The translations under genes were made by a program, and so were the position numbers. Below, in pieces: positions 2,033-10,718 of a stretch of 64,000 nt of DNA. This DNA is from Opitutaceae bacterium (GTDB lineage Bacteria; Verrucomicrobiota; Verrucomicrobiia; Opitutales; Opitutaceae). A model generated the notes under the pieces. It saw nothing but the letters and a program-made list of their open reading frames with translations. It was not told the origin of the DNA and ran no database searches. The number at the start of each line of letters is the position of its first letter. Position 1 is the stretch's first letter. The stretch covers positions 46,829 through 110,828 of the forward strand of contig DASTWZ010000039.1 in NCBI GenBank assembly GCA_035765635.1. Direction: 5' to 3'.

Positions 2033-3073
2033 CTACCGCGCGGCCGCTTTCAGATCGTAGAGAAACAAACCGTGGCCGACTCCGGCGGCTTCGCCGGTTT
2101 GGCCCATTTGAAATGCGATATAGTGGCCATCGTCGCTCACCACCGGGTTTGATGCCTTGTAGCCGGGATAGTCGCTGAAATACGTCAGGCGCGTGTAGTG
2201 TCCGCTGCCATCGAGCGAAAGCTTCCAGAGATCGATCGATCCTGGGCCCTTCCGATTTTGTTCATCGCATTCGACCAAGGTCGCACTGCCGTCAGGAAAA
2301 ATGCCTTCAGGCTCGTCGTAGACGTCGGGCGTATCGGTATATTTCGTGATCTTCTTGGTCGCGAGATCGACGCCGCAAACATCGCATTTGCCTCCGGCCT
2401 TTCCGTACGCGCTGAACGTGAGTTCCTTTTCGTCAGGCGCGCGAAAGTTTTGCGGTTCTATCGTGCACGGGAACGGGAGATCGGCGGAATCGAGCACGAG
2501 CCGTTTCTCACCGAGTTCGGGCACACCGTTTTTATAAATGATGTCCGCTTCGTAGAGCTTTGAGCCGGCGTTACCCTGCGTGGCCGCGGTGGCGTGGCTC
2601 CACTCCGCCCAGGCGATGTGCAGCTTTCGTCGCGAGACCGCGGGGCCTTCGTTGATGCGCGGACCGAGGGGCACGGGCGGCTTTTTGCCGCTCTGGTCCA
2701 TGACGTAGAGAAAACAATCCCAACGCGCCTGGCCCGGATTCTTCGTGTCGAACTCCTGTGGGCCGACGAGGAGGATGTCGCCATTCGAGAGATACAAGGC
2801 CCGGGTGAAACCGTGATGGGGAAAAAACGCGGTCAGATTGCGAATCGTGCGCGTGGCAAGATCCATCTCCATCGCGTCGCCGAACGTTTTTGACAGGAAG
2901 AGAATCTTTTTCCCGTCTGCCGACCAATCGGCGCGTTCGCCGAAGTGCGTGAGTTGAACAATATTTGCCGGCAAATGATCGGCCGGGCTTTCCCCGGCTT
3001 TGGGTGAAGCCGAAGCCAGGCAAGCGCCCATGGCGAACGCAGCGAACCAGCACAAGAAGCGGGGCGTTTTCAT
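2033..3073 (-). CDS. secreted PD40/TolB-like beta-propeller protein
   Basis: N-terminal signal peptide MKTPRFLCWFAAFAMGACLASA. Propeller-like segments recur (SADGKKILF, SNGDILLV, SDDGHYIAF). Codon usage is good. Confidence 0.6.
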   Translation of the reverse strand: MKTPRFLCWFAAFAMGACLASASPKAGESPADHLPANIVQLTHFGERADWSADGKKILFLSKTFGDAMEMDLATRTIRNLTAFFPHHGFTRALYLSNGDILLVGPQEFDTKNPGQARWDCFLYVMDQSGKKPPVPLGPRINEGPAVSRRKLHIAWAEWSHATAATQGNAGSKLYEADIIYKNGVPELGEKRLVLDSADLPFPCTIEPQNFRAPDEKELTFSAYGKAGGKCDVCGVDLATKKITKYTDTPDVYDEPEGIFPDGSATLVECDEQNRKGPGSIDLWKLSLDGSGHYTRLTYFSDYPGYKASNPVVSDDGHYIAFQMGQTGEAAGVGHGLFLYDLKAAAR

Positions 3074-3169
3074 GCCGATATTCTTGACGCACCCACGCGC
3101 CTCCGCGAGCCCCAGAAGCGGTTTTGCCGTTCGAATCTATCCACACATAAGAGAAGGCGAGGCAGCAGC

Positions 3170-3520
3170 GGAGCGCTGGCCTCCGGGCCGGCCACCCTTT
3201 TTATCACGGCGCCAGCCGCGGACTCGTTTCGTCGCGAGAAGCGGCCATCGAGTCCGTCCGCGCCCTGTGGCGCGGACAATAAAAAGGTTGCCGGCGGGAG
3301 GACGCCGGCGCTCCCAGATCGGAATGCCGGCAAGGGATGCCGACATTCCGAGAGGCCGCGCTGCACCGGCATCAAAGGCCTCGCACCGCCCTCGAAAAAA
3401 GAACGCTGCACCGGCTTTAAAGGAACGGGGTATTGGCTTCAAAAAGCCGCGCCCTCTGTGGCGCGGTTTTTTTTTGCCGGAGCGCCGGCGTCCTCGCCGG
3501 CATGGATCGGTTCGCCGCGA
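3170..3520. repeat. intergenic repeat cluster (CGAGTCCGTCCGCGC-N-GCGCGGAC hairpin plus GCCGGCGAGGACGCC(A/G)GCGCTCCCAG unit)
   Basis: 3170-3285 matches the reverse complement of 7053-7168. Related units occur at 10762-10832, 30322-30495 and 44583-44678. Confidence 0.8.
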
Positions 3521-3602
3521 ACCGGCAGACTTTCGCAGCAACTCAAGGCATCCGGTCTCGCCCCTTTTTATGGTCAAACGGCCTTCTCGGACGTCCACAG
3601 GC

Positions 3603-5300
3603 ATGCACCGCTGCGCGCACGAAATCCAAGTGGCTCTTTTTCTTGTCGGAAATGGTGGGGCAGCGGGTGCTATTAAACACGTGACCTCCGACAGCGAACT
3701 TCTTCGGCGATATTCTGAGGCGAAAGATGGCGAGGCTTTCGCCGAACTGGTGACGCGCCATTTTGGCTTGGTCTATGGGACTGCGATGCGGCGGGTCGGC
3801 GGAGATGCTCATGCGGCGAAGGATGTCGCACAATCCGTGTTTACTGATCTTGCGAAAAAGGCCTCTGGAATACCGCGAGCGCGACCGCTGCCTGGCTGGC
3901 TACATACGAGCACGTGTTATGCGGCAGCAAAGTTGGTGCGCACGGAGCAGCGTCGCAGACGCGTTGAGCAACTCGCTTTTGCCGACGCCGCCGGACTCGG
4001 TAGCGGCGAAGAGTCGGCCTCGGACTGGACCGCGATCGAGCCATCGCTGGATTCAGCGCTTCAAACTTTATCCGACGAAGATCGCGGCGCGGTCATCATG
4101 CGATTTTTTCAAGAGCGCTCGTACGCCGAAATCGGCACGGAGTTCTCGCTTAAGGAAGACACGGCCCGCGTGCGGGTGCAGCGCTCTCTCGAGAAACTGC
4201 GCGCTGCGCTGCGTCGTCATGGGATTCAGTCAACGGCTGAGGCGCTCGCCATTGCGCTTGCGGCGAACAACGCCACGGCAGCGGCGCCCAGCGGACTGGC
4301 TGCCGTGATCGCTCAAATCGCGCTACGCAGCGCCGCGATGGCATCTGTGGGAAGCGCGGCTGGCGTCATTACGTTTATGAGCACGTCGAAAGTTCTGGGT
4401 TCGGCTCTCGCTGTGAGTCTTGCGATGTCGGCATTTCTGGCAGTCATGCTTTTCCGTGAACGTGCATCGACGGCCGATGCGGAGGTGCGTCGCGCGGCGC
4501 TCGAGAAAGAGCGCTCGAGTTGGACGGAAGCGCCTAACGAAATCGCGCGGCTTCGTGGAGAACTCGGCGCGCTGAAAAAGGCCGAACAGCAGCGAATCGC
4601 TGCCGTCGAAGCGAAGAAGCGCGAGCAAGAAGCATTGGAAACGGATTTGGACAAATGGCTCGATCGCATCGATCGACTTAAACGCTTCGCATCGGCTCAT
4701 CCGGAATGGGTCATACCGGAAATGCAACTGCTCACGCCGACGAACTGGCTGGATGCCACCAAGGGAGGAAACCTCGAAACCGAAGCTGACTACCGGCAGG
4801 CCCTTTCAACGTTACGCATGAATGCGAAAAACTTGATCGCGCAAAAATTCAACAAAGCCATCGGCCTTTATCTGGCAGCGCATCAGGGCGTCCCGCCGGC
4901 CGACGCCCGTGAGCTGGCGCCATTTTTTAGCGAGCCGATGTCGAACGACATTCTGGACCGCTACACCCTGAGCAGCTCCGACGAGATCAAAAATTGGAAG
5001 ACACTTTCCAAGACGGCGAAAGAACCATTCGCGTTCACGGAAAAAGCGGTTTCCGACCCGCTCTGGGATACGGAAATTCTCTTTGCCGAAAATGGCGTCG
5101 CGATGAAATTGGGCGACTCCGCGCTTCGCCGATCCGACGTCGCCTCCGCCATGCGCACTTATACGGAAAAGAACGGAACGCCGCCAACGGAACTCGCGCA
5201 AATCGCGCCTTACCTGAAATCGACTTCGAATCCGGAAGTCCTCGCTGAAGTATTCGAAGCGATTCGTTCCCATCCTGTCCTGCCGCCGAAACCGGAGTGA
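3603..5300 (+). CDS. ECF-type RNA polymerase sigma-70 factor fused to a transmembrane segment, coiled coil and ~260-aa C-terminal domain (alternative GTG start at 3681)
   Basis: Sigma region 2 and 4 style sequence is present (SELLRRYSEAKDGEAFAELVTRHFGLVYGTAMRRVG...; LSDEDRGAVIMRFFQERSYAEIGTEFSLKEDTARVRVQRSLEKLR). A hydrophobic stretch VLGSALAVSLAMSAFLAVMLF follows. The upstream part of the 3000-5300 ORF runs through repeats. Confidence 0.8.
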   Translation: MHRCAHEIQVALFLVGNGGAAGAIKHVTSDSELLRRYSEAKDGEAFAELVTRHFGLVYGTAMRRVGGDAHAAKDVAQSVFTDLAKKASGIPRARPLPGWLHTSTCYAAAKLVRTEQRRRRVEQLAFADAAGLGSGEESASDWTAIEPSLDSALQTLSDEDRGAVIMRFFQERSYAEIGTEFSLKEDTARVRVQRSLEKLRAALRRHGIQSTAEALAIALAANNATAAAPSGLAAVIAQIALRSAAMASVGSAAGVITFMSTSKVLGSALAVSLAMSAFLAVMLFRERASTADAEVRRAALEKERSSWTEAPNEIARLRGELGALKKAEQQRIAAVEAKKREQEALETDLDKWLDRIDRLKRFASAHPEWVIPEMQLLTPTNWLDATKGGNLETEADYRQALSTLRMNAKNLIAQKFNKAIGLYLAAHQGVPPADARELAPFFSEPMSNDILDRYTLSSSDEIKNWKTLSKTAKEPFAFTEKAVSDPLWDTEILFAENGVAMKLGDSALRRSDVASAMRTYTEKNGTPPTELAQIAPYLKSTSNPEVLAEVFEAIRSHPVLPPKPE

Positions 5301-6446: not shown

Positions 6447-6510
6447 CGAAAAATCCTTACCGCGATCGATGCGCGGTCTGCAACGGCAACGGCAGCCGTG
6501 CTCTTTTCAA

Positions 6511-6966
6511 TCACTTCGGCTGCACGGCGTATTTTCCCGGGCCGCACAGCACCAGAAGCAGAAATCCGAACGCGTAGGCGAACGCCACTTCGCCCGAGTT
6601 GTGACCGCTCAGCGCCATCTGGTGGTGAAAAATCCAGGCGATCGTCAGCGTGATGAACATGCCGAGCGCGTTAAAGCGGGCAAAGAGTCCGAGGATGATC
6701 ATCATGCAGCCAAACGTCTCGAACCAGGTCACGAGCACGTAACTCAATTCGGAGCTGATTCCGATGTAGTTGGGGAAAGTGTGGAATTCTTTTCGCACGC
6801 CCTCGAAGGCGAAGAGGTTCGGCAGATGAGCCGACTGGTCTTTCCAGCCGGTCAATTTTCCCCAGCCGTGAAAACGGAGGACGAGTCCCGCGAGAACGAC
6901 GCGAAAGAGCAGCAGACCGAGATCCGCGTTCAGCGGAAGGAAGGAGAGGCTAAAGAACTTCTTCAT
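6511..6966 (-). CDS. DoxX family membrane protein
   Basis: 151 aa with 4 predicted TM segments. N-terminus LGLLLFRVVLAGLVLRFHGWGKL is typical of DoxX. Confidence 0.75.
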   Translation of the reverse strand: MKKFFSLSFLPLNADLGLLLFRVVLAGLVLRFHGWGKLTGWKDQSAHLPNLFAFEGVRKEFHTFPNYIGISSELSYVLVTWFETFGCMMIILGLFARFNALGMFITLTIAWIFHHQMALSGHNSGEVAFAYAFGFLLLVLCGPGKYAVQPK

Positions 6967-7052
6967 TCCACCGGCATCTATCGGGCCACGCAGAGCCGCG
7001 AGCGCGAAACGATTCAGACGTGAGAACGCGTGTCGGCGCCGGCGTGATCCTT

Positions 7053-7168
7053 GATCGAGTCCGTCCGCGCTCGAGGCGCAGACGGACTCGACGACCGTTT
7101 CGCGCGACGCAACAAGTCCGCGGCTGCCGCCGCGATAAAAGGATGGCCGCCCGGGAGGCCGGCGCTCC
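7053..7168. repeat. inverted copy of the 3170-3285 repeat
   Basis: Its reverse complement aligns with 3170-3285 (GGCCTCC(C)GGGC(C)GGCCA..CCGCGGACT..CGAGTCCGTC(C/T)GCGCC). Confidence 0.8.
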
Positions 7169-7357
7169 GTTGGCCTCCTTTGCGCTTCGTTGGGCTCGGT
7201 TGCGCTTTGCTCTCTAATTCACCCCTCCGGCAGTTCTTGCCCGGGCGGGGGAATCTGGGGTGTGCGAAAACTGCCTAGCGGCGGCGAGGTGGGCGTAAGT
7301 CCCTAGTCCATCGTATTCTGCACGCTTGGCATTTGCGGTGCTAAGTGCCTGGTCCGC

Positions 7358-7882
7358 ATGCAGTCCAACGCCGTAGTCACCTGCCCAAAAGCCTCGAAGC
7401 TCTGGCAAGAGATCGTAGGGACTACTCGCGAAGCCTGCCTCCTCCGCCAGGAGGGTCGCGAACAGGAAGCCGTTGATCTCCTTCAGCAACAGCTCCCCGT
7501 CACGATTCGCCAATGGTCGAACAGCTGCGGCGAGTCTCCCGAACGCTGCCGCGAAATGCTGCGCGAACTCTTCGCCCGCGAGCAGGAAGCCGCCCGCATC
7601 GCGGCGCTCCAACGTCGCCTTATCGTCGACGAGGTCTGCTCGCGCCTGCAGGTCCAGCGCAACGCCAACGACTCGGTCGAAGGCCGCGTTGTAGTGAAAG
7701 AAGCACTACGTCCGCTCCAACTGCGCCACCGCGTTCCGATCGACGACGTCGTCGGCATGCTCGACGCGCTGCAACAAGCCGAACGAGGCGAACTCGCCGA
7801 AGCCATCCTGCCCGCGCGGCAGAACTTCTCCTCCCTTTCTTTCGTCAGCCAACTTCCGTACCCGGACGCGGCGCGCGAATGA
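7358..7882 (+). CDS. hypothetical protein, Cys-containing and probably helical; upstream partner of the actin-like gene
   Basis: High GC3 codon usage in this frame. It ends 36 nt before the actin-like gene on the same strand. I recognise no family. Confidence 0.55.
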   Translation: MQSNAVVTCPKASKLWQEIVGTTREACLLRQEGREQEAVDLLQQQLPVTIRQWSNSCGESPERCREMLRELFAREQEAARIAALQRRLIVDEVCSRLQVQRNANDSVEGRVVVKEALRPLQLRHRVPIDDVVGMLDALQQAERGELAEAILPARQNFSSLSFVSQLPYPDAARE

Positions 7883-7918
7883 TAAACACACGATCCATCC
7901 ATCCAAACTCCCATCGAT

Positions 7919-9064
7919 ATGAGCTCTTCAAAAAATAGCAGCAGCGCCTCCGCGCTTGTGTCCTCCGACAGCAACAGCCCGATCCCGCAAACCACCGCGA
8001 CGAACACCGTTCTCGTGGGTCTCGATTGGGGCACGAACATGTCGTGCGTCATGGCCGCCGCGCCCAACTCCACCGAGTTGATGGTGCACGAGCAGATTCC
8101 GACCGTCGTCGGCTACGCCAACGAAAACGTCCTCGAAGGGGTGATTCCCGGCGATGCCAAAGTCCTTTTCGGCCGCGAAGCCCAGCGCTACGCGAATCAT
8201 CTCAATGTCGTTCGCCCGCTCCGTGGCGGCGTCATCAAGGAACGCGCCGCCGCTCGCGCTTTCGCTCTGCATCTGCGCGATCGCATGAACCTCGGCGAAG
8301 GCGAAATCCGCGCTGTGGTCGGCATGCCGGCCAGCTCGGACGCGGTGGCTCGCGAAGACGCGCGCGCTGCGCTCAAAGGCGTTTTCCACAAAGTCATTTT
8401 CGTTCCCGAGCCATTCCTGGCCGCTCTCGGCTACCGCGACGAGTCGCGCCTTTCCGATCCCGATTATCAGGATCCGGTGCTCAACTCCCTCTACATCGAT
8501 ATCGGCGCCGGCTCGACCGACGTGTGCCTCGTGCAGGGTCACTATCCGACGGTCAACGACCAGCTCAGCGCCACGTTTGCCGGTGATGCAGTCGACCAAG
8601 TCATTCTCGAGGCGGCCTCGGTTGCGTATCCGGATTGTGGATTCACGCCGACTCGCATTCGCGAGTTCAAGGAAAAGCACGCCTCCGTTTTCAACGAAGG
8701 TTCCGCCAGTCCCGCGATCGTCACCGTCATGGTCGGCGGCAAGCCGCGCAAAGTGGATCTCACGTCGCAAATCGCGGCAGGTTGTGACGCGCTTCTCCAA
8801 AAGGTTTTCGCGATGGTCGTCGAACTGATCGGTCGCGCCAATCCTGACCTGGTTTCCGAACTGCTCCAGAACGTCATCGTGACGGGTGGCGGCAGTCTGA
8901 TGCGCGGCTTCGGCGTCGCGTTGCAATCGAAGTTGATCGAAGAAGGTTTTGAAAACCCGCGCGTCAACGTCCTCGGCCAGAACTACAAGGACTACGTCGC
9001 TCGCGGCGCGCTCAAGACGGCTCGCCTCGCGAAAGACCGTCAGTGGCAGACCTTGATCGACTAA
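7919..9064 (+). CDS. actin-family ATPase, MamK/MreB-like
   Basis: Actin-fold motifs VGLDWGTN, AVVGMPAS, LYIDIGAGSTDVC, VIVTGGGSLMRGF. The full length resembles MamK as I recall it. There is a Ser-rich ~30-aa N-terminal extension. Confidence 0.8.
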   Translation: MSSSKNSSSASALVSSDSNSPIPQTTATNTVLVGLDWGTNMSCVMAAAPNSTELMVHEQIPTVVGYANENVLEGVIPGDAKVLFGREAQRYANHLNVVRPLRGGVIKERAAARAFALHLRDRMNLGEGEIRAVVGMPASSDAVAREDARAALKGVFHKVIFVPEPFLAALGYRDESRLSDPDYQDPVLNSLYIDIGAGSTDVCLVQGHYPTVNDQLSATFAGDAVDQVILEAASVAYPDCGFTPTRIREFKEKHASVFNEGSASPAIVTVMVGGKPRKVDLTSQIAAGCDALLQKVFAMVVELIGRANPDLVSELLQNVIVTGGGSLMRGFGVALQSKLIEEGFENPRVNVLGQNYKDYVARGALKTARLAKDRQWQTLID

Positions 9065-9173
9065 CTTTTTTCCGAGTCGGGCGTGAGCGGCTGATCGGGT
9101 AAACTGATTCGTTCGCCGCCACTCGACTTGTTTAGCCTTTCCGGTCGACGGGAGTCTTCCGGATCGTGTGGCC

Positions 9174-9199
9174 CCGGCCGGGATTTATTTCCCGGCCGG
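9174..9199 (+). terminator. GC-rich hairpin downstream of the actin-like gene (no U-tract)
   Basis: CCGGCCGGGA-TTTATT-TCCCGGCCGG, a perfect 10-bp stem with a 6-nt loop. Confidence 0.3.
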
Positions 9200-9329
9200 C
9201 GTGCCGATGGACGTATCCCCACGGCAACTACACAGCGCGAATGTATAAATCGCGCTGCTGAGGCTGCGCTCGGGAAATGGGAATGAGGCTTGCCGCGGGA
9301 GCGGTAATGGTGGTTGGAGTCTGCACCCC

Positions 9330-10718
9330 ATGAAATCACGTTTTCTCTCCCGTTTTGTTCGCGCCAGCGCGCCGCGCTTCGCGACTTCTGTTTTCGCCGC
9401 GGCAGCCTTGGCCTCGGCAGTGGTCCTTCCGTCGATCGCGTCCGCTGTGACGGAAGTCGCCACGCCGAAATATCAGCCGATGCCGGATGATCCGTATTTC
9501 GCGATCTATCATCCGCGCCTCGCGCCTGAGCCCGGTCCGTTGCTGCTCCGCAAGGGCGACAAACTCGTGATCATCGGAGACTCGATCACCGAGCAAAAAT
9601 TGTACTGCCGCATTCTCGAAACCTATCTCCGCGTCTGCCGGCCCGATCTCGAACTCGACATTCGTCAACTCGGCTGGAGCGGCGAAACGGTCGAAGGCTT
9701 TCGCAAGCGGGTCGAACAGGATTGCCTTCGCTTTCATCCCGATGTCGCGACGCTGTGCTATGGCATGAACGACTCGAAATATCGGCCGTACGACGACGCG
9801 AACGGCACTTGGTTTCGGGAAAATCTCACCGCGTTGGTCGAGCAGTTCAAGGGGGCGAACATGCGCGTGGTGGTCGGCTCTCCTGGCATCGCGGAGAATC
9901 ATGCCGTGTGGGTCAAACCGCGCGCCGGCACGCTCGAGGAGCACAACCTAAATCTTTGCACGCTGCGCGACATCGCGCTGGACGTGGCCACCGCGGAGGA
10001 CACGCGTTTCGCCGACGTATTTTTGCCAATGCTGAAAGCGGGCTTCACCGCGCGCGCCCGCTACGGCGCGAATCCCGACGCGCCTTATGCCCTCGCGGGC
10101 AAGGACGGCATTCACCCGGGCTGGGCCGGGCACTTGGTCATGGCGTATGCATTTTTGCGCGGCCTCGGAGTCGGCGGAGATCAGGGCACCTTCACGGTGG
10201 ACATGAGTGCGAAAAAGGCGGAGGCCACGCCCGGGCACCATGTCGATCGTTTCAACGGCTCCGAATTAGTGATCACCAGCTCGCGTTATCCGTTTTGTGC
10301 GGAGGGTCCGGTGGACCGCGACGATTCGATTCGCTCGGGCATGTCGCTCGTGCCGTTCGCGCAGGAGTTCAATCGGCTGCGCCTCGTGATCCACGGTAGC
10401 CCGACGGCGCATTATTCGATCACGTGGGGCGACGAGTTTCGGCAGTATAGCGCGGCGGAACTCGAGGCCGGCGTGAATCTAGCGGAAGAATTTCCGAAAA
10501 ATCCCTTCAGTGCTGCGTTCGCGAAAGTGGACGAAGCCGTCGCGGCGAAACAGGCCTTCGAAACAAAGCAGGTGAAACAGATTTTCCACGGACCCGAGGG
10601 CAAAGCGAATATCGAAGAGGCCGTCGCGCGCACCGAAGCGGAGCGGGCCAAACTCGTGCAAGCGATCAAGGACGCGTTCGTGCCGGTGACGCACACGATA
10701 AAGATCGCAGTGCATTGA
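9330..10718 (+). CDS. secreted SGNH/GDSL hydrolase family protein
   Basis: Signal peptide, then block I VIIGDSITEQ and a later GIHPG-type block. A C-terminal extra domain is present. Confidence 0.8.
   Translation: MKSRFLSRFVRASAPRFATSVFAAAALASAVVLPSIASAVTEVATPKYQPMPDDPYFAIYHPRLAPEPGPLLLRKGDKLVIIGDSITEQKLYCRILETYLRVCRPDLELDIRQLGWSGETVEGFRKRVEQDCLRFHPDVATLCYGMNDSKYRPYDDANGTWFRENLTALVEQFKGANMRVVVGSPGIAENHAVWVKPRAGTLEEHNLNLCTLRDIALDVATAEDTRFADVFLPMLKAGFTARARYGANPDAPYALAGKDGIHPGWAGHLVMAYAFLRGLGVGGDQGTFTVDMSAKKAEATPGHHVDRFNGSELVITSSRYPFCAEGPVDRDDSIRSGMSLVPFAQEFNRLRLVIHGSPTAHYSITWGDEFRQYSAAELEAGVNLAEEFPKNPFSAAFAKVDEAVAAKQAFETKQVKQIFHGPEGKANIEEAVARTEAERAKLVQAIKDAFVPVTHTIKIAVH

What the first reader, a model, noticed from the sequence alone, without database searches (positions are those of the whole stretch)
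7358..9064. Orphan MamK-like actin-family ATPase with an uncharacterised upstream partner gene
The 381-aa product of 7919-9064 carries the actin-fold nucleotide-binding motifs VGLDWGTN, AVVGMPAS, LYIDIGAGSTDVC and VIVTGGGSLMRGF. Along its length it looks closer to magnetosome MamK than to MreB or ParM as I recall those families (PTVVGYANE, VRPLRGGVI, FVPEPFLAALGY, C-terminal ARGALKTARL..QWQTL). It also has a ~30-aa Ser-rich N-terminal extension. No mam, mreCD, parR/parC-like or plasmid genes are nearby. A 174-aa Cys-containing, probably helical protein of no family I recognise ends 36 nt upstream on the same strand. A perfect 10-bp GC hairpin follows the pair at 9174-9199. The flanking genes are unrelated: a DoxX operon on the other strand and a secreted SGNH hydrolase. 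This looks like a self-contained two-gene cytomotive-filament module of unknown cargo or function in an apparently non-magnetotactic genome.
Basis: partly seen in the sequence, partly recalled or inferred. Interest (0 to 1): 0.72.

Follow-up and report, generated by a model that had tools for sequence, protein, structure and literature searches.

The report
BeeR actin operon with conserved partner
This is a two-gene operon for BeeR, a bacterial actin whose O. terrae relative forms three-stranded tubes, and a small undescribed helical protein that sits just upstream of BeeR in almost every genome sampled, giving a first lead to BeeR's unknown function.

Summary
Both ORFs, every quoted motif, the 36-nt gap, the 10-bp hairpin and the unrelated flanking genes are present as described.

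The actin is not an orphan. It belongs to the BeeR family (Bergeron et al., PNAS 2025; PDB 8R2N), the sister group of MamK, found in Verrucomicrobiota. BeeR's function is unknown. The window protein lies in a sister subclade, 47.6% identical to the characterised O. terrae protein. Most polar contacts between filament strands are replaced in this subclade.

A homolog of the 174-aa protein lies immediately upstream on the same strand in:
- 33 of 35 loci of the window's clade (the two exceptions are one paralog lineage);
- 70 of 70 O. terrae-type loci;
- 5 of 5 divergent lineages.

No other neighbouring gene is conserved. The partner has no known family or fold match. It has a helical N-domain, a spacer of about 20 to 400 aa, and a conserved C-terminal helix. 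Homologs that lack this helix are not next to BeeR (3 of 3).

In the window's clade the operon has a conserved sigma-54-type promoter with an upstream dyad, and a hairpin follows BeeR. I found no paper that mentions the partner or this promoter. How the partner acts is inferred, not shown.

The parts
7229..7241 (+). Dyad GGCAGTTCTTGCC (GGCA-N5-TGCC), about 86-98 nt upstream of the -24 element. It is a candidate binding site for a sigma-54 enhancer-binding protein.
   Evidence: When the loci are anchored on the promoter, a similar dyad (GGCA-T/A-rich-TGCC or GGAAA..TTTCC) appears at about the same distance in nearly all clade A loci. It is also present upstream of the two partner-less paralogs L014 and L017. 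I assessed this by eye, without a statistical test. Its function is inferred.
7327..7342 (+). Sigma-54 (RpoN)-type -24/-12 promoter TGGCATTTGCGGTGCT (GG-N10-GC). The predicted transcription start is near 7353, which leaves a leader of about 5 nt.
   Evidence: This is the only match to TGGCAYNNNNNKTGCW in the 64-kb window; 0.19 are expected by chance. TGGC-N7-NTGC lies 27-39 nt (66 nt in one locus) before the partner start codon in 29 of 30 clade A loci, against a background of 0.028 per 150 nt. Actomonas aquatica has the textbook TGGCACG-N4-TTGCA. The motif is absent from O. terrae-type loci. The transcription start is inferred, not measured.
7358..7882 (+). Partner gene: a 174-aa cytoplasmic helical protein of an undescribed family that is associated with BeeR.
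   Evidence: Homologs lie immediately upstream of BeeR on the same strand in 33 of 35, 70 of 70 and 5 of 5 loci. dN/dS is 0.06-0.35. There is no hit in Pfam, NCBIfam, PADLOC, PHROGs or PDB sequences, and no significant Foldseek hit. An exhaustive profile search found 213 cluster representatives at E<=1e-3.
7385..7672 (+). Partner N-domain, residues 10-105. It is predicted as three helices (10-31, 35-57, 61-105) and carries the conserved positions W16, E25, C27, R30, E32-G33-R34, P47, W53-S54, L68 and F72.
   Evidence: The AlphaFold model has pLDDT 96-97 over residues 11-90. Conservation comes from alignments A3 and A4. hhalign gives 97% probability (E 2e-11) against the O. terrae-type partner profile.
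7718..7807 (+). Partner C-terminal conserved motif, residues 121-150 (QLRHRVPIDDVVGMLDALQQAERGELAEAI). It is acidic, and I propose it as the part that contacts BeeR.
   Evidence: The segment is predicted helical from residue 131 (H131-157), with pLDDT about 80. The motif [RK]-V-P-x-x-D-[VI]-x-x-M-[LI]-D-A-L is retained in clades A and B and in the long-spacer variants. It is absent from the subgroup with only the N-domain, which is not next to BeeR. The segment's net charge is -3.1.
7919..9064 (+). BeeR-family actin-like ATPase, 381 aa. Residues 1-30 (nt 7919-8008) are a disordered Ser/Thr-rich extension. Residues 31-381 are the actin fold.
   Evidence: NCBIfam BeeR scores 493.9 bits over model positions 1-349 of 349. 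PDB 8R2N matches at E 2e-109 with 47.6% identity. The predicted fold matches 8r2n_A with TM 0.85/0.91. A neighbour-joining tree places it with BeeR and away from MamK.
9174..9199 (.). Perfect 10-bp GC stem with a 6-nt loop, 110 nt after the BeeR stop codon. It probably marks the end of the operon, but it has no T tract.
   Evidence: The stem and sequence are shown. A strong GC hairpin (dG -26 to -34 kcal/mol) follows the BeeR stop in nearly all clade A loci, often with a T-rich tail. The sequences are not homologous, so what is conserved is position and structure.

Best explanation
The region is a self-contained two-gene operon of a Verrucomicrobiota (Opitutaceae-like) chromosome. In order it contains a sigma-54-type promoter with an upstream dyad, a partner gene (174 aa), a BeeR-family actin gene (381 aa) and a hairpin. 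BeeR is the MamK-related actin whose O. terrae member polymerises with ATP into a rigid three-stranded tube. The window protein belongs to a sister subclade. The partner is an obligate genomic companion of BeeR across the whole family. It has three parts: a conserved helical N-domain, a spacer of very variable length, and a conserved acidic C-terminal helix. My inferred mechanism is that the C-terminal helix contacts BeeR, most plausibly in the hydrophobic groove between subdomains IA and IIA. ParR uses that groove on ParM, and arcadin-2 uses it on crenactin. The N-domain would then oligomerise or bind a cellular target. On this view the partner either tethers or positions the BeeR filament, or controls its assembly. 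In the window's clade, expression would be conditional, needing RpoN and an activator encoded elsewhere. What is shown: family membership, gene linkage, purifying selection, the domain architecture, the conserved promoter motif, and the link between the C-terminal motif and adjacency to BeeR. What is inferred: physical binding, the binding site, the effect on filaments, and actual use of sigma-54.
For: Identity of the actin. Published properties of BeeR. Linkage: the partner lies directly upstream on the same strand in 33 of 35 clade A loci, in 70 of 70 O. terrae-type loci with enough upstream sequence, and in 5 of 5 divergent lineages whose actins score 510-566 bits on the BeeR model. No other gene is conserved across the clades. 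In three genomes the pair is bounded by unrelated genes on the opposite strand. The two subfamilies of the partner are homologous, with hhalign probability 97%. The spacer ranges from about 20 to about 400 aa while both end modules are kept. Homologs with only the N-domain and no C-terminal motif have no BeeR downstream in 3 of 3 cases. The two BeeR genes without an upstream partner form one paralog lineage, and one of them shares a MAG with a complete pair. Promoter. Hairpin. Precedent for a C-terminal helix binding the actin groove: PMC5173319.
Against: There is no direct evidence that the two proteins interact. A fused or multimer structure prediction could not be run. About 110 sequence pairs are too few for coevolution analysis. 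The partner's fold search returned only generic helical bundles with E above 0.8. Gene order is the reverse of parM-parR, alfA-alfB and alp7A-alp7R. The sigma-54 motif is missing from the O. terrae-type clade. No rpoN or enhancer-binding protein gene lies in the window or the locus flanks. The predicted leader is only 0-12 nt, which is unusual. The link between the C-terminal motif and BeeR adjacency rests on 3 negative cases from one subgroup.
Confidence: 0.6

Rival explanations
1. The partner sequesters BeeR monomers or acts as an assembly chaperone, like arcadin-2 or thymosin, rather than as a tether. It would bind BeeR monomers and keep them unpolymerised until a signal arrives. The N-domain would then be regulatory and would not bind cargo.
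For: O. terrae BeeR polymerises within minutes and did not depolymerise over about 12 h in vitro, so cells may need a factor that restrains or dismantles it. Arcadin-2 has the same layout, with a conserved C-terminal helix, and is encoded next to its actin. Having the partner gene first in the operon would supply the inhibitor before the polymer.
Against: A spacer that varies from about 20 to about 400 aa, with coiled-coil-like inserts, fits a distance-setting tether better than a simple sequestering protein. The N-domain is the most conserved and best-predicted part, which suggests it has a binding partner of its own.
Confidence: 0.2
2. The pair is a ParMRC-like DNA-segregation module. The partner would be a DNA-binding adaptor that recognises the conserved upstream dyad as a centromere and operator, and BeeR would push or position DNA.
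For: In ParMRC the centromere parC lies in the promoter region upstream of the operon, and ParR binds the filament through its C-terminus (established knowledge; ParM:ParR groove binding is cited). A conserved dyad lies upstream of the operon. The window has a weak 2-copy 20-nt tandem repeat at 7162-7201. BeeR has a faint PHROG 'partition protein' hit at E 5e-4.
Against: The loci are chromosomal and seem to occur about once per genome in a whole bacterial family. They include Mb-scale chromosomes. They are not on plasmids or phages, and the PHROG hit covers only 55 residues of the shared actin fold. No iteron array is conserved. The dyad sits where an activator site is expected for a sigma-54 promoter, and clade B has no comparable promoter. 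The partner matches no RHH or HTH family. The gene order is reversed.
Confidence: 0.08
3. The partner is only a transcriptional or post-transcriptional regulator of the operon, for example an anti-activator of the sigma-54 activator, and never contacts BeeR.
For: The operon is small and has a specialised promoter. The partner is a small helical protein. There are faint, non-significant hits to a SigE-family sigma factor (E 0.078) and to the ExsD anti-activator hairpin (2 of 67 members, E 0.037).
Against: The partner stays linked to BeeR in clade B and in divergent lineages that lack the sigma-54 motif, so its role cannot depend on that promoter. The long coiled-coil spacers are hard to explain for a regulator. 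All the family hits are below significance.
Confidence: 0.07
4. The adjacency is operon hitch-hiking with no functional coupling.
For: The only support is that no interaction has been shown.
Against: Adjacency and orientation are conserved in about 108 of 110 sampled loci, while BeeR diverges to 44-53% identity and the surrounding genes turn over completely. Homologs that lose the C-terminal motif also lose the adjacency.
Confidence: 0.03

Closest known systems
BeeR (Opitutus terrae B1ZZL4, PDB 8R2N; Bergeron et al., PNAS 2025, PMC11929497)
   Same: The window protein has the same family model as its best full-length hit, at 494 bits. It is 47.6% identical over 359 aligned residues. The predicted fold gives TM 0.85/0.91. 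It has the hallmark disordered N-terminal extension, intact nucleotide-binding motifs and a Verrucomicrobiota host. The conserved upstream partner is present in O. terrae-type loci too.
   Different: The window protein is in a sister subclade and falls just under NCBI's equivalog cut-off of 530. Five to six polar cross-strand contact residues are systematically replaced: R242 to A/V, N246 to D/E, T307 to E/D, E149 to L/A, R157 to A/N/T, and N379 to R/N. The three-stranded tube is therefore not assured for this clade. Clade A has its own sigma-54-type promoter, whereas many clade B loci follow rplU-rpmA. The published work does not mention any partner or gene context.
MamK with MamJ (magnetosome chain cytoskeleton)
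   Same: MamK is the nearest classical actin family, at 27-31% identity, with MamK filament TM 0.77/0.90. From my own knowledge, mamJ lies directly upstream of mamK in Magnetospirillum and encodes an acidic, repeat-containing adaptor that ties the cargo to the filament. That is the same gene order and logic proposed here.
   Different: The NCBIfam MamK score is 177 against a cut-off of 400. There are no mam genes nearby. The partner shows no detectable similarity to any described family. The hosts are not magnetotactic.
ParM-ParR-parC and the related AlfA/AlfB and Alp7A/Alp7R systems (type II plasmid partition)
   Same: Both are two-gene units made of an actin-like ATPase and a small adaptor. 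The adaptor has an N-terminal module, a flexible region and a C-terminal element that binds the actin's hydrophobic groove (ParM:ParR, cited). A regulatory DNA element lies upstream of the operon.
   Different: This locus is chromosomal and inherited vertically across a bacterial family. The gene order is reversed. There is no iteron array and no RHH domain was detected. BeeR is not close to ParM.
Crenactin with arcadin-2 (Pyrobaculum arcade cluster; PMC5173319)
   Same: A small protein encoded next to the actin homolog has a conserved C-terminal alpha-helix that is necessary and sufficient for binding the actin's hydrophobic groove. The partner here has an analogous conserved C-terminal helix after a flexible linker.
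   Different: That system is archaeal and there is no sequence similarity. Arcadin-2 depolymerises filaments, whereas any effect of the BeeR partner is unknown. The arcade cluster has further genes, whereas here only the pair is conserved.

Membership tests
BeeR family actin-like protein | Match to the curated family model NCBIfam NF053558 at or above its cut-off of 530 bits | tested here: inconclusive
   The score is 493.9 bits (E 2e-148), covering model positions 1-349 of 349. It is the best hit by far but falls below the cut-off. Members of the same clade fall on both sides of it: L021 549, L029 531, Actomonas P0120 552, others 487-502.
BeeR family actin-like protein | Closer in sequence and tree position to characterised BeeR than to MamK, MreB or ParM | tested here: met
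   8R2N matches at E 2e-109 (47.6% identity), MamK at E 9e-30 (about 27%) and MreB at E 3e-14. The neighbour-joining tree groups the window clade with the O. terrae clade, with MamK as outgroup.
BeeR family actin-like protein | Actin fold with intact nucleotide-binding and hydrolysis motifs | tested here: met
   The motifs GLDWGTN, DIGAGSTD and GGGS are present and invariant across the clade. The AlphaFold model has pLDDT 83. Its best Foldseek hit is 8r2n_A at E 1e-43, TM 0.85/0.91.
BeeR family actin-like protein | Unstructured, poorly conserved N-terminal extension of 30-50 aa (the published hallmark) | tested here: met
   The window protein has a 30-aa Ser/Thr-rich extension before the core. 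pLDDT is below 50 for residues 1-27. Clade mates have extensions of about 20-30 aa where the start codon is clear, more where it is uncertain, with unrelated sequence.
BeeR family actin-like protein | Conservation of the cross-strand contact residues that build the three-stranded tube | tested here: not met
   R242, N246, T307, E149, R157 and N379 are conserved in the O. terrae-type clade but replaced throughout the window's clade. In the window protein they are V235, D239, E302, A142, A150 and R374. Only E153, R255 and the hydrophobic contacts are kept.
BeeR family actin-like protein | ATP-dependent assembly into a three-stranded, parallel, hollow filament | not testable with these tools
   This needs purified protein and EM. 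It has been shown only for O. terrae BeeR.
MamK family | Family model NF040964 at or above 400 bits, and a magnetosome (mam) gene context | tested here: not met
   The score is 177.4 bits. The neighbours are DoxX, a 2-hydroxyacid dehydrogenase and a GDSL hydrolase.
MreB | MreB family models at their cut-offs, and adjacent mreC/mreD | tested here: not met
   The scores are 59 bits against a cut-off of 293, and 50 bits against 366. No mreCD genes are adjacent. Public annotations naming relatives 'rod shape-determining protein MreB' are over-general.
Type II (ParMRC-like) partition system | Plasmid or phage location, a small DNA-binding adaptor gene downstream of the actin gene, and a centromere of repeated iterons | tested here: not met
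   The loci are chromosomal, including Mb-scale chromosomes. The small gene is upstream and has no DNA-binding family hit. Only a 2-copy 20-nt repeat was found upstream.
Sigma-54-dependent promoter | A -24 GG and -12 GC separated by exactly 10 nt within a TGGCAC-N5-TTGCW-like sequence, correctly placed and conserved in orthologous loci | tested here: met
   The window has TGGCATTTGCGGTGCT at 7327-7342. It is the only match in 64 kb, where 0.19 are expected. The motif is at the same position in 29 of 30 clade A loci, with a background of 0.028 per 150 nt. In each of 15 clade A loci the strict pattern matches exactly once, at that position in every one for which I mapped the site.
Sigma-54-dependent promoter | rpoN and a cognate enhancer-binding protein in the genome, and a transcription start about 12 nt after the GC | not testable with these tools
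   No GAFTGA or Walker motif of an enhancer-binding protein and no RpoN box was found in the 64-kb window or the locus flanks. The rest of the genome was not available, and there are no transcript data.

The most novel reading that the evidence does not exclude
The 174-aa protein may be the missing functional partner of BeeR. On this reading it founds a new family of adaptors or regulators for bacterial actins. Its conserved C-terminal helix would dock into BeeR's hydrophobic groove. Its N-domain, held at a lineage-specific distance by a spacer of 20-400 aa, would bind a still-unknown cellular structure. In the window's clade the whole cytoskeletal module would be switched on through sigma-54, and BeeR there may form a filament with different lateral contacts from the published three-stranded tube.
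Probability: 0.35. Interest if true: 0.75.

Novelty: new variant of a known kind. Interest (0 to 1): 0.58.

Why it matters
BeeR was published with a striking structure and no known function. The paper and the preprint say nothing about its gene context. Three results here give concrete experimental handles.

- BeeR is almost never encoded alone. A fast-evolving helical protein precedes it across every sampled lineage. This partner can be used directly for pull-downs, co-polymerisation assays, deletions and localisation.
- In one large clade the operon carries a conserved sigma-54 promoter and an upstream dyad. This suggests the filament is made only under a specific signal. It also means the activator can be sought by DNA affinity.
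- The window's clade differs systematically at the contacts between strands. This tests whether the three-stranded tube is a property of the whole family.

Cultured strains that carry the pair exist, including Actomonas aquatica and Opitutaceae isolates MBA3-11 and D2-102. O. terrae-type loci carry it too. Public annotation that calls these proteins MreB is misleading.

Tried and rejected
- Known RNA families: an Rfam scan of 6500-9600 gave only a chance-level sRNA hit inside the BeeR coding sequence.
- Sigma-70 promoters and canonical terminators: the scan found no promoter, and the terminator-like hits were at chance level.
- Known families for the partner: Pfam, NCBIfam, PADLOC and PHROGs gave nothing significant. 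A profile search of PDB sequences had a best E of 0.37.
- Fold of the partner: Foldseek against the PDB returned only generic helical hairpins and bundles (ESCRT-III/IST1, FliT, MIT) at E above 0.8 and TM below 0.31. I did not treat these as evidence.
- Structure of the pair: I tried to predict it as one chain from window:7358-9061. Outside sequences are not accepted, so no interface prediction was possible.
- Rosetta-stone fusions: I suspected that the 534-565-aa partner homologs were partner-BeeR fusions. They are not. They have the same N-domain with a long coiled-coil spacer, and some also keep the C-terminal motif. P0264 is a read-through ORF joining the partner's C-terminus to BeeR, with a frameshifted end. 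It is probably an assembly or gene-calling artefact.
- Additional conserved genes: the first clustering was swamped by shadow ORFs in this GC-rich DNA. After filtering on third-codon-position GC, only BeeR and the partner span both clades.
- Activator and sigma factor: I searched for an enhancer-binding protein and for rpoN near the locus and found neither.
- Centromere-like repeats: the upstream region has only a 2-copy repeat.
- Literature: searches on BeeR returned only the PNAS paper and its preprint. Only open-access papers and bioRxiv were searchable.
Full report
**1. Observation**

The two ORFs are at the stated coordinates: 7358-7882 (+, 174 aa) and 7919-9064 (+, 381 aa). They are in the same reading frame and are separated by 36 nt that begin with a second stop codon. 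All quoted motifs are present. The first 30 residues of the larger protein are Ser/Thr-rich.

The hairpin at 9174-9199 is a perfect 10-bp stem with a 6-nt loop and no following T tract. Pfam confirms DoxX and a 2-hydroxyacid dehydrogenase on the opposite strand upstream, and a GDSL/SGNH hydrolase downstream.

**2. What the actin is**

NCBIfam's best model is NF053558, 'BeeR family actin-like protein'. It scores 493.9 bits (E 2e-148) and aligns end to end. MamK follows at 177 bits and MreB at 59 bits.

The best solved structure is 8R2N, at E 2e-109 and 47.6% identity over 359 residues. MamK follows at E 9e-30 and MreB at E 3e-14 or weaker. An AlphaFold model (pLDDT 83, residues 1-27 disordered) matches 8r2n_A best, with TM 0.85/0.91. 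The MamK filament comes next at 0.77/0.90.

8R2N is BeeR from Opitutus terrae (Bergeron et al., PNAS 2025, PMC11929497). The paper describes a family with these properties:
- it is related to MamK at 25-30% identity;
- it is conserved in Verrucomicrobiota;
- it carries a disordered N-terminal extension of 30-50 aa;
- it polymerises with ATP into a rigid, three-stranded, parallel tube;
- its function is stated to be unknown.

**3. Position within the family**

A genome scan returned 35 BeeR loci, all from Opitutaceae, Opitutales or 'Verrucomicrobia' genomes and MAGs. They are 61-72% identical to the window protein. A metagenome scan with the O. terrae sequence returned 80 loci that are 74-88% identical to it.

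The two sets are 46-50% identical to each other. They form two sister clades, A (window type) and B (O. terrae type), with MamK outside. Clade A members fall on both sides of NCBI's 530-bit cut-off. Actomonas aquatica scores 552, two isolates score 549 and 531, and the window and most MAGs score 487-502. The shortfall therefore reflects a tight threshold, not a different family.

The polar residues that the paper identifies as cross-strand contacts behave differently in the two clades. They are conserved in clade B: R242 in 44 of 44, N246 in 43 of 44, N379 in 44 of 44, T307 in 37 of 44. They are replaced throughout clade A: A/V, D/E, R/N and E/D respectively, plus E149 to L/A and R157 to A/N/T. 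E153, R255 and the hydrophobic contacts are kept. Whether clade A builds the same tube cannot be decided here.

**4. The upstream gene is a conserved companion**

The 174-aa protein has no Pfam or NCBIfam match. A word-indexed search found only nine close homologs. Four of them come from contigs of the same length as the contigs of the closest BeeR homologs.

An HMM built from these nine hit an ORF immediately upstream of BeeR, on the same strand, in 33 of the 35 clade A loci (E 1e-26 to 1e-53). The two loci without it, L014 and L017, are sister sequences in the tree. L017 comes from the same MAG as L008, which has the complete pair. They therefore look like a duplicated BeeR copy that lacks its own partner.

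In clade B the clade A profile alone detected the upstream ORF in 39 loci. After one iteration it detected exactly one ORF per locus in 76 loci. That covers all 70 loci with at least 650 nt of upstream sequence, and the ORF is always on the same strand and directly before BeeR. The two partner subfamilies align profile to profile with 97% probability (E 2e-11) over 139 columns.

An exhaustive profile search of 1.84 billion representatives found 213 proteins at E<=1e-3. I looked up the context of five divergent ones that carry the C-terminal motif (P0247, P0214, P0222, P0277, P0309). In each case the next gene is an actin. Four of the actins score 510-566 bits on the BeeR model and 216-229 on MamK, and the fifth is a truncated BeeR-like ORF.

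Close pairs of the partner gene give dN/dS of 0.06-0.35.

Nothing else is conserved across the clades. In the window, in Actomonas aquatica and in the window's closest relative, the pair sits between unrelated genes on the opposite strand.

Neither the BeeR paper nor its preprint contains the words operon, genomic, neighbour, upstream or synteny. Three literature searches found no other work on BeeR.

**5. Anatomy of the partner**

AlphaFold, run with 67 sequences, predicts three confident helices at 10-31, 35-57 and 61-105 (pLDDT 96-97 over residues 11-90). A disordered linker follows, then a helix at 131-157 (pLDDT about 80) and a disordered tail.

Conserved positions cluster in two places:
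- the N-domain: W16, E25, C27, R30, E32-G-R34, P47, W53-S54, L68, F72;
- the C-terminal motif [RK]-V-P-x-x-D-[VI]-x-x-M-[LI]-D-A-L-x-E-A-E.

Some homologs are 300-565 aa long. They keep both end modules and differ by a long, charged, coiled-coil-like insert between them.

A separate subgroup (P0294, P0279, P0300, P0262) has the N-domain and a long coiled coil but no C-terminal motif. In the three cases with usable context, no BeeR gene follows. The C-terminal motif therefore tracks adjacency to BeeR, and the N-domain is a separable module.

No fold or family match gives a function.

**6. Regulation**

Aligning the upstream regions showed TGGCAY-N5-(T/G)TGCT 27-39 nt before the partner's start codon in 29 of 30 clade A loci. 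The thirtieth has CGGCAT...TTGC. The motif is also in the window at 7327-7342. That is the only match in 64 kb, where 0.19 are expected by chance.

The background rate of the loose pattern is 0.028 per 150 nt. In each of 15 clade A loci the strict pattern matches exactly once, at that position in every one for which I mapped the site. Actomonas has TGGCACG-N4-TTGCA. This is the -24/-12 signature of sigma-54 promoters, according to the established consensus.

About 85-110 nt further upstream, nearly every locus has a dyad such as GGCATTTCCTGCC. In the window it is GGCAGTTCTTGCC at 7229-7241. An AT-rich tract often lies between the dyad and the promoter. That layout is typical of an activator site. 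I assessed the dyad by eye, without a statistical test. The partner-less paralogs keep both elements.

Clade B lacks the motif: 4 of 69 loci match, which is chance level. Many clade B loci follow rplU-rpmA on the same strand instead.

No activator gene or rpoN lies in the window or the locus flanks.

A strong GC hairpin follows the BeeR stop codon in nearly all clade A loci. The sequences are unrelated and often carry a T tail. This supports a transcription unit of promoter, partner, BeeR and terminator.

**7. Mechanism**

Shown here: a vertically inherited, self-contained two-gene unit; a partner with two conserved modules separated by a variable spacer; and a conserved sigma-54-type promoter in clade A.

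Inferred: the C-terminal helix contacts BeeR. The best precedents are the C-terminus of ParR in the hydrophobic groove of ParM, and the conserved C-terminal helix of arcadin-2 in the groove of crenactin (PMC5173319). mamJ upstream of mamK is a further parallel, from my own knowledge.

The variable spacer favours a tether or positioning role. The fast and apparently irreversible polymerisation of O. terrae BeeR in vitro keeps a sequestering or assembly-control role open. A ParMRC-like DNA-segregation role, a purely regulatory role and chance linkage are less likely, for the reasons given under the rival explanations.

**8. Verdict**

The actin is a new member of a known family, in a subclade that differs at the lateral contacts. 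I did not find the obligate partner, its architecture or the sigma-54 control described in any searchable paper. Together they make BeeR's unknown function directly testable. I rate this of moderate to good interest, and as a new variant of a known kind.

Noticed in passing
L014:5887-7137 and L017:1826-3073 (BeeR paralogs): Two clade A BeeR genes have no partner upstream. They are sister sequences, and their ORFs allow about 64 residues before the actin core, compared with about 20-30 in most clade mates. They keep the sigma-54 motif and the dyad. L017 is in the same MAG as the complete pair in L008. This looks like a duplicated BeeR that relies on the single partner gene.
   Followed up: partly
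L038-L068 and other clade B loci, directly upstream of the partner (for example L041:635-1039, L063:674-1108): In 33 of 61 O. terrae-type loci with enough upstream sequence, a small protein (about 110-190 aa) lies between rpmA and the partner on the same strand. It has an N-terminal coiled coil (RLxELxRQRxLxxEHLAWLxREIA) and a C-terminal transmembrane helix. It could be a membrane anchor specific to that lineage. It is absent from clade A and from the window.
   Followed up: partly
L082, L087-L090, L097, L098, L100, L111 (about 340-430 nt ORF just upstream of the partner): Another set of clade B loci has a small conserved ORF before the partner instead (motif ...[31 protein letters not shown]). 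I did not identify it against any library.
   Followed up: no
L125:1667-3271 (P0294), L128:1118-2116 (P0300), P0279, P0262: One subgroup of proteins shares only the partner's N-domain, followed by a long coiled coil. It lacks the C-terminal motif, and no BeeR gene is next to it. The N-domain is therefore an independent module with a life outside the BeeR system.
   Followed up: partly
P0264 (367 aa): This predicted protein runs in frame from the partner's C-terminal motif through the intergenic region into BeeR, and ends in a frameshifted tail. It is probably an assembly or gene-calling artefact. A true fusion in that organism was not excluded.
   Followed up: no
window 7055-7091: An inverted repeat with 16-nt arms, 94% complementary, and a 5-nt loop lies between the start of the divergently transcribed DoxX gene (6511-6966, minus strand) and the BeeR operon. 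Its role is unknown.
   Followed up: no
window 7162-7201: Two tandem copies of a 20-nt unit (GCGCTCCGTTGGCCTCCTTT and GCGCTTCGTTGGGCTCGGTT, 80% identical) lie upstream of the dyad. I did not see them in other loci. Chance is a likely explanation.
   Followed up: partly
window 7327-7358 and the equivalent positions in clade A loci: If the sigma-54 assignment is right, the mRNA leader is only about 0-12 nt (about 5 nt in the window). The partner would then be translated from a nearly leaderless transcript with no Shine-Dalgarno sequence.
   Followed up: no
Public annotations of relatives: JGI and NCBI name most clade A BeeR proteins 'rod shape-determining protein MreB', although they score only about 50-60 bits on MreB models that have cut-offs of 293-366. 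Most of the checked sequences (7 of 10 relatives, plus the window) fall just under the NCBIfam BeeR cut-off of 530, so automatic annotation may miss them.
   Followed up: partly
window 3000-5300 (+): The long ORF listed here contains sequence resembling an ECF-type sigma factor (…RFFQERSYAEIG…), followed by a transmembrane segment and a coiled-coil region. I noted this from the translation only.
   Followed up: no
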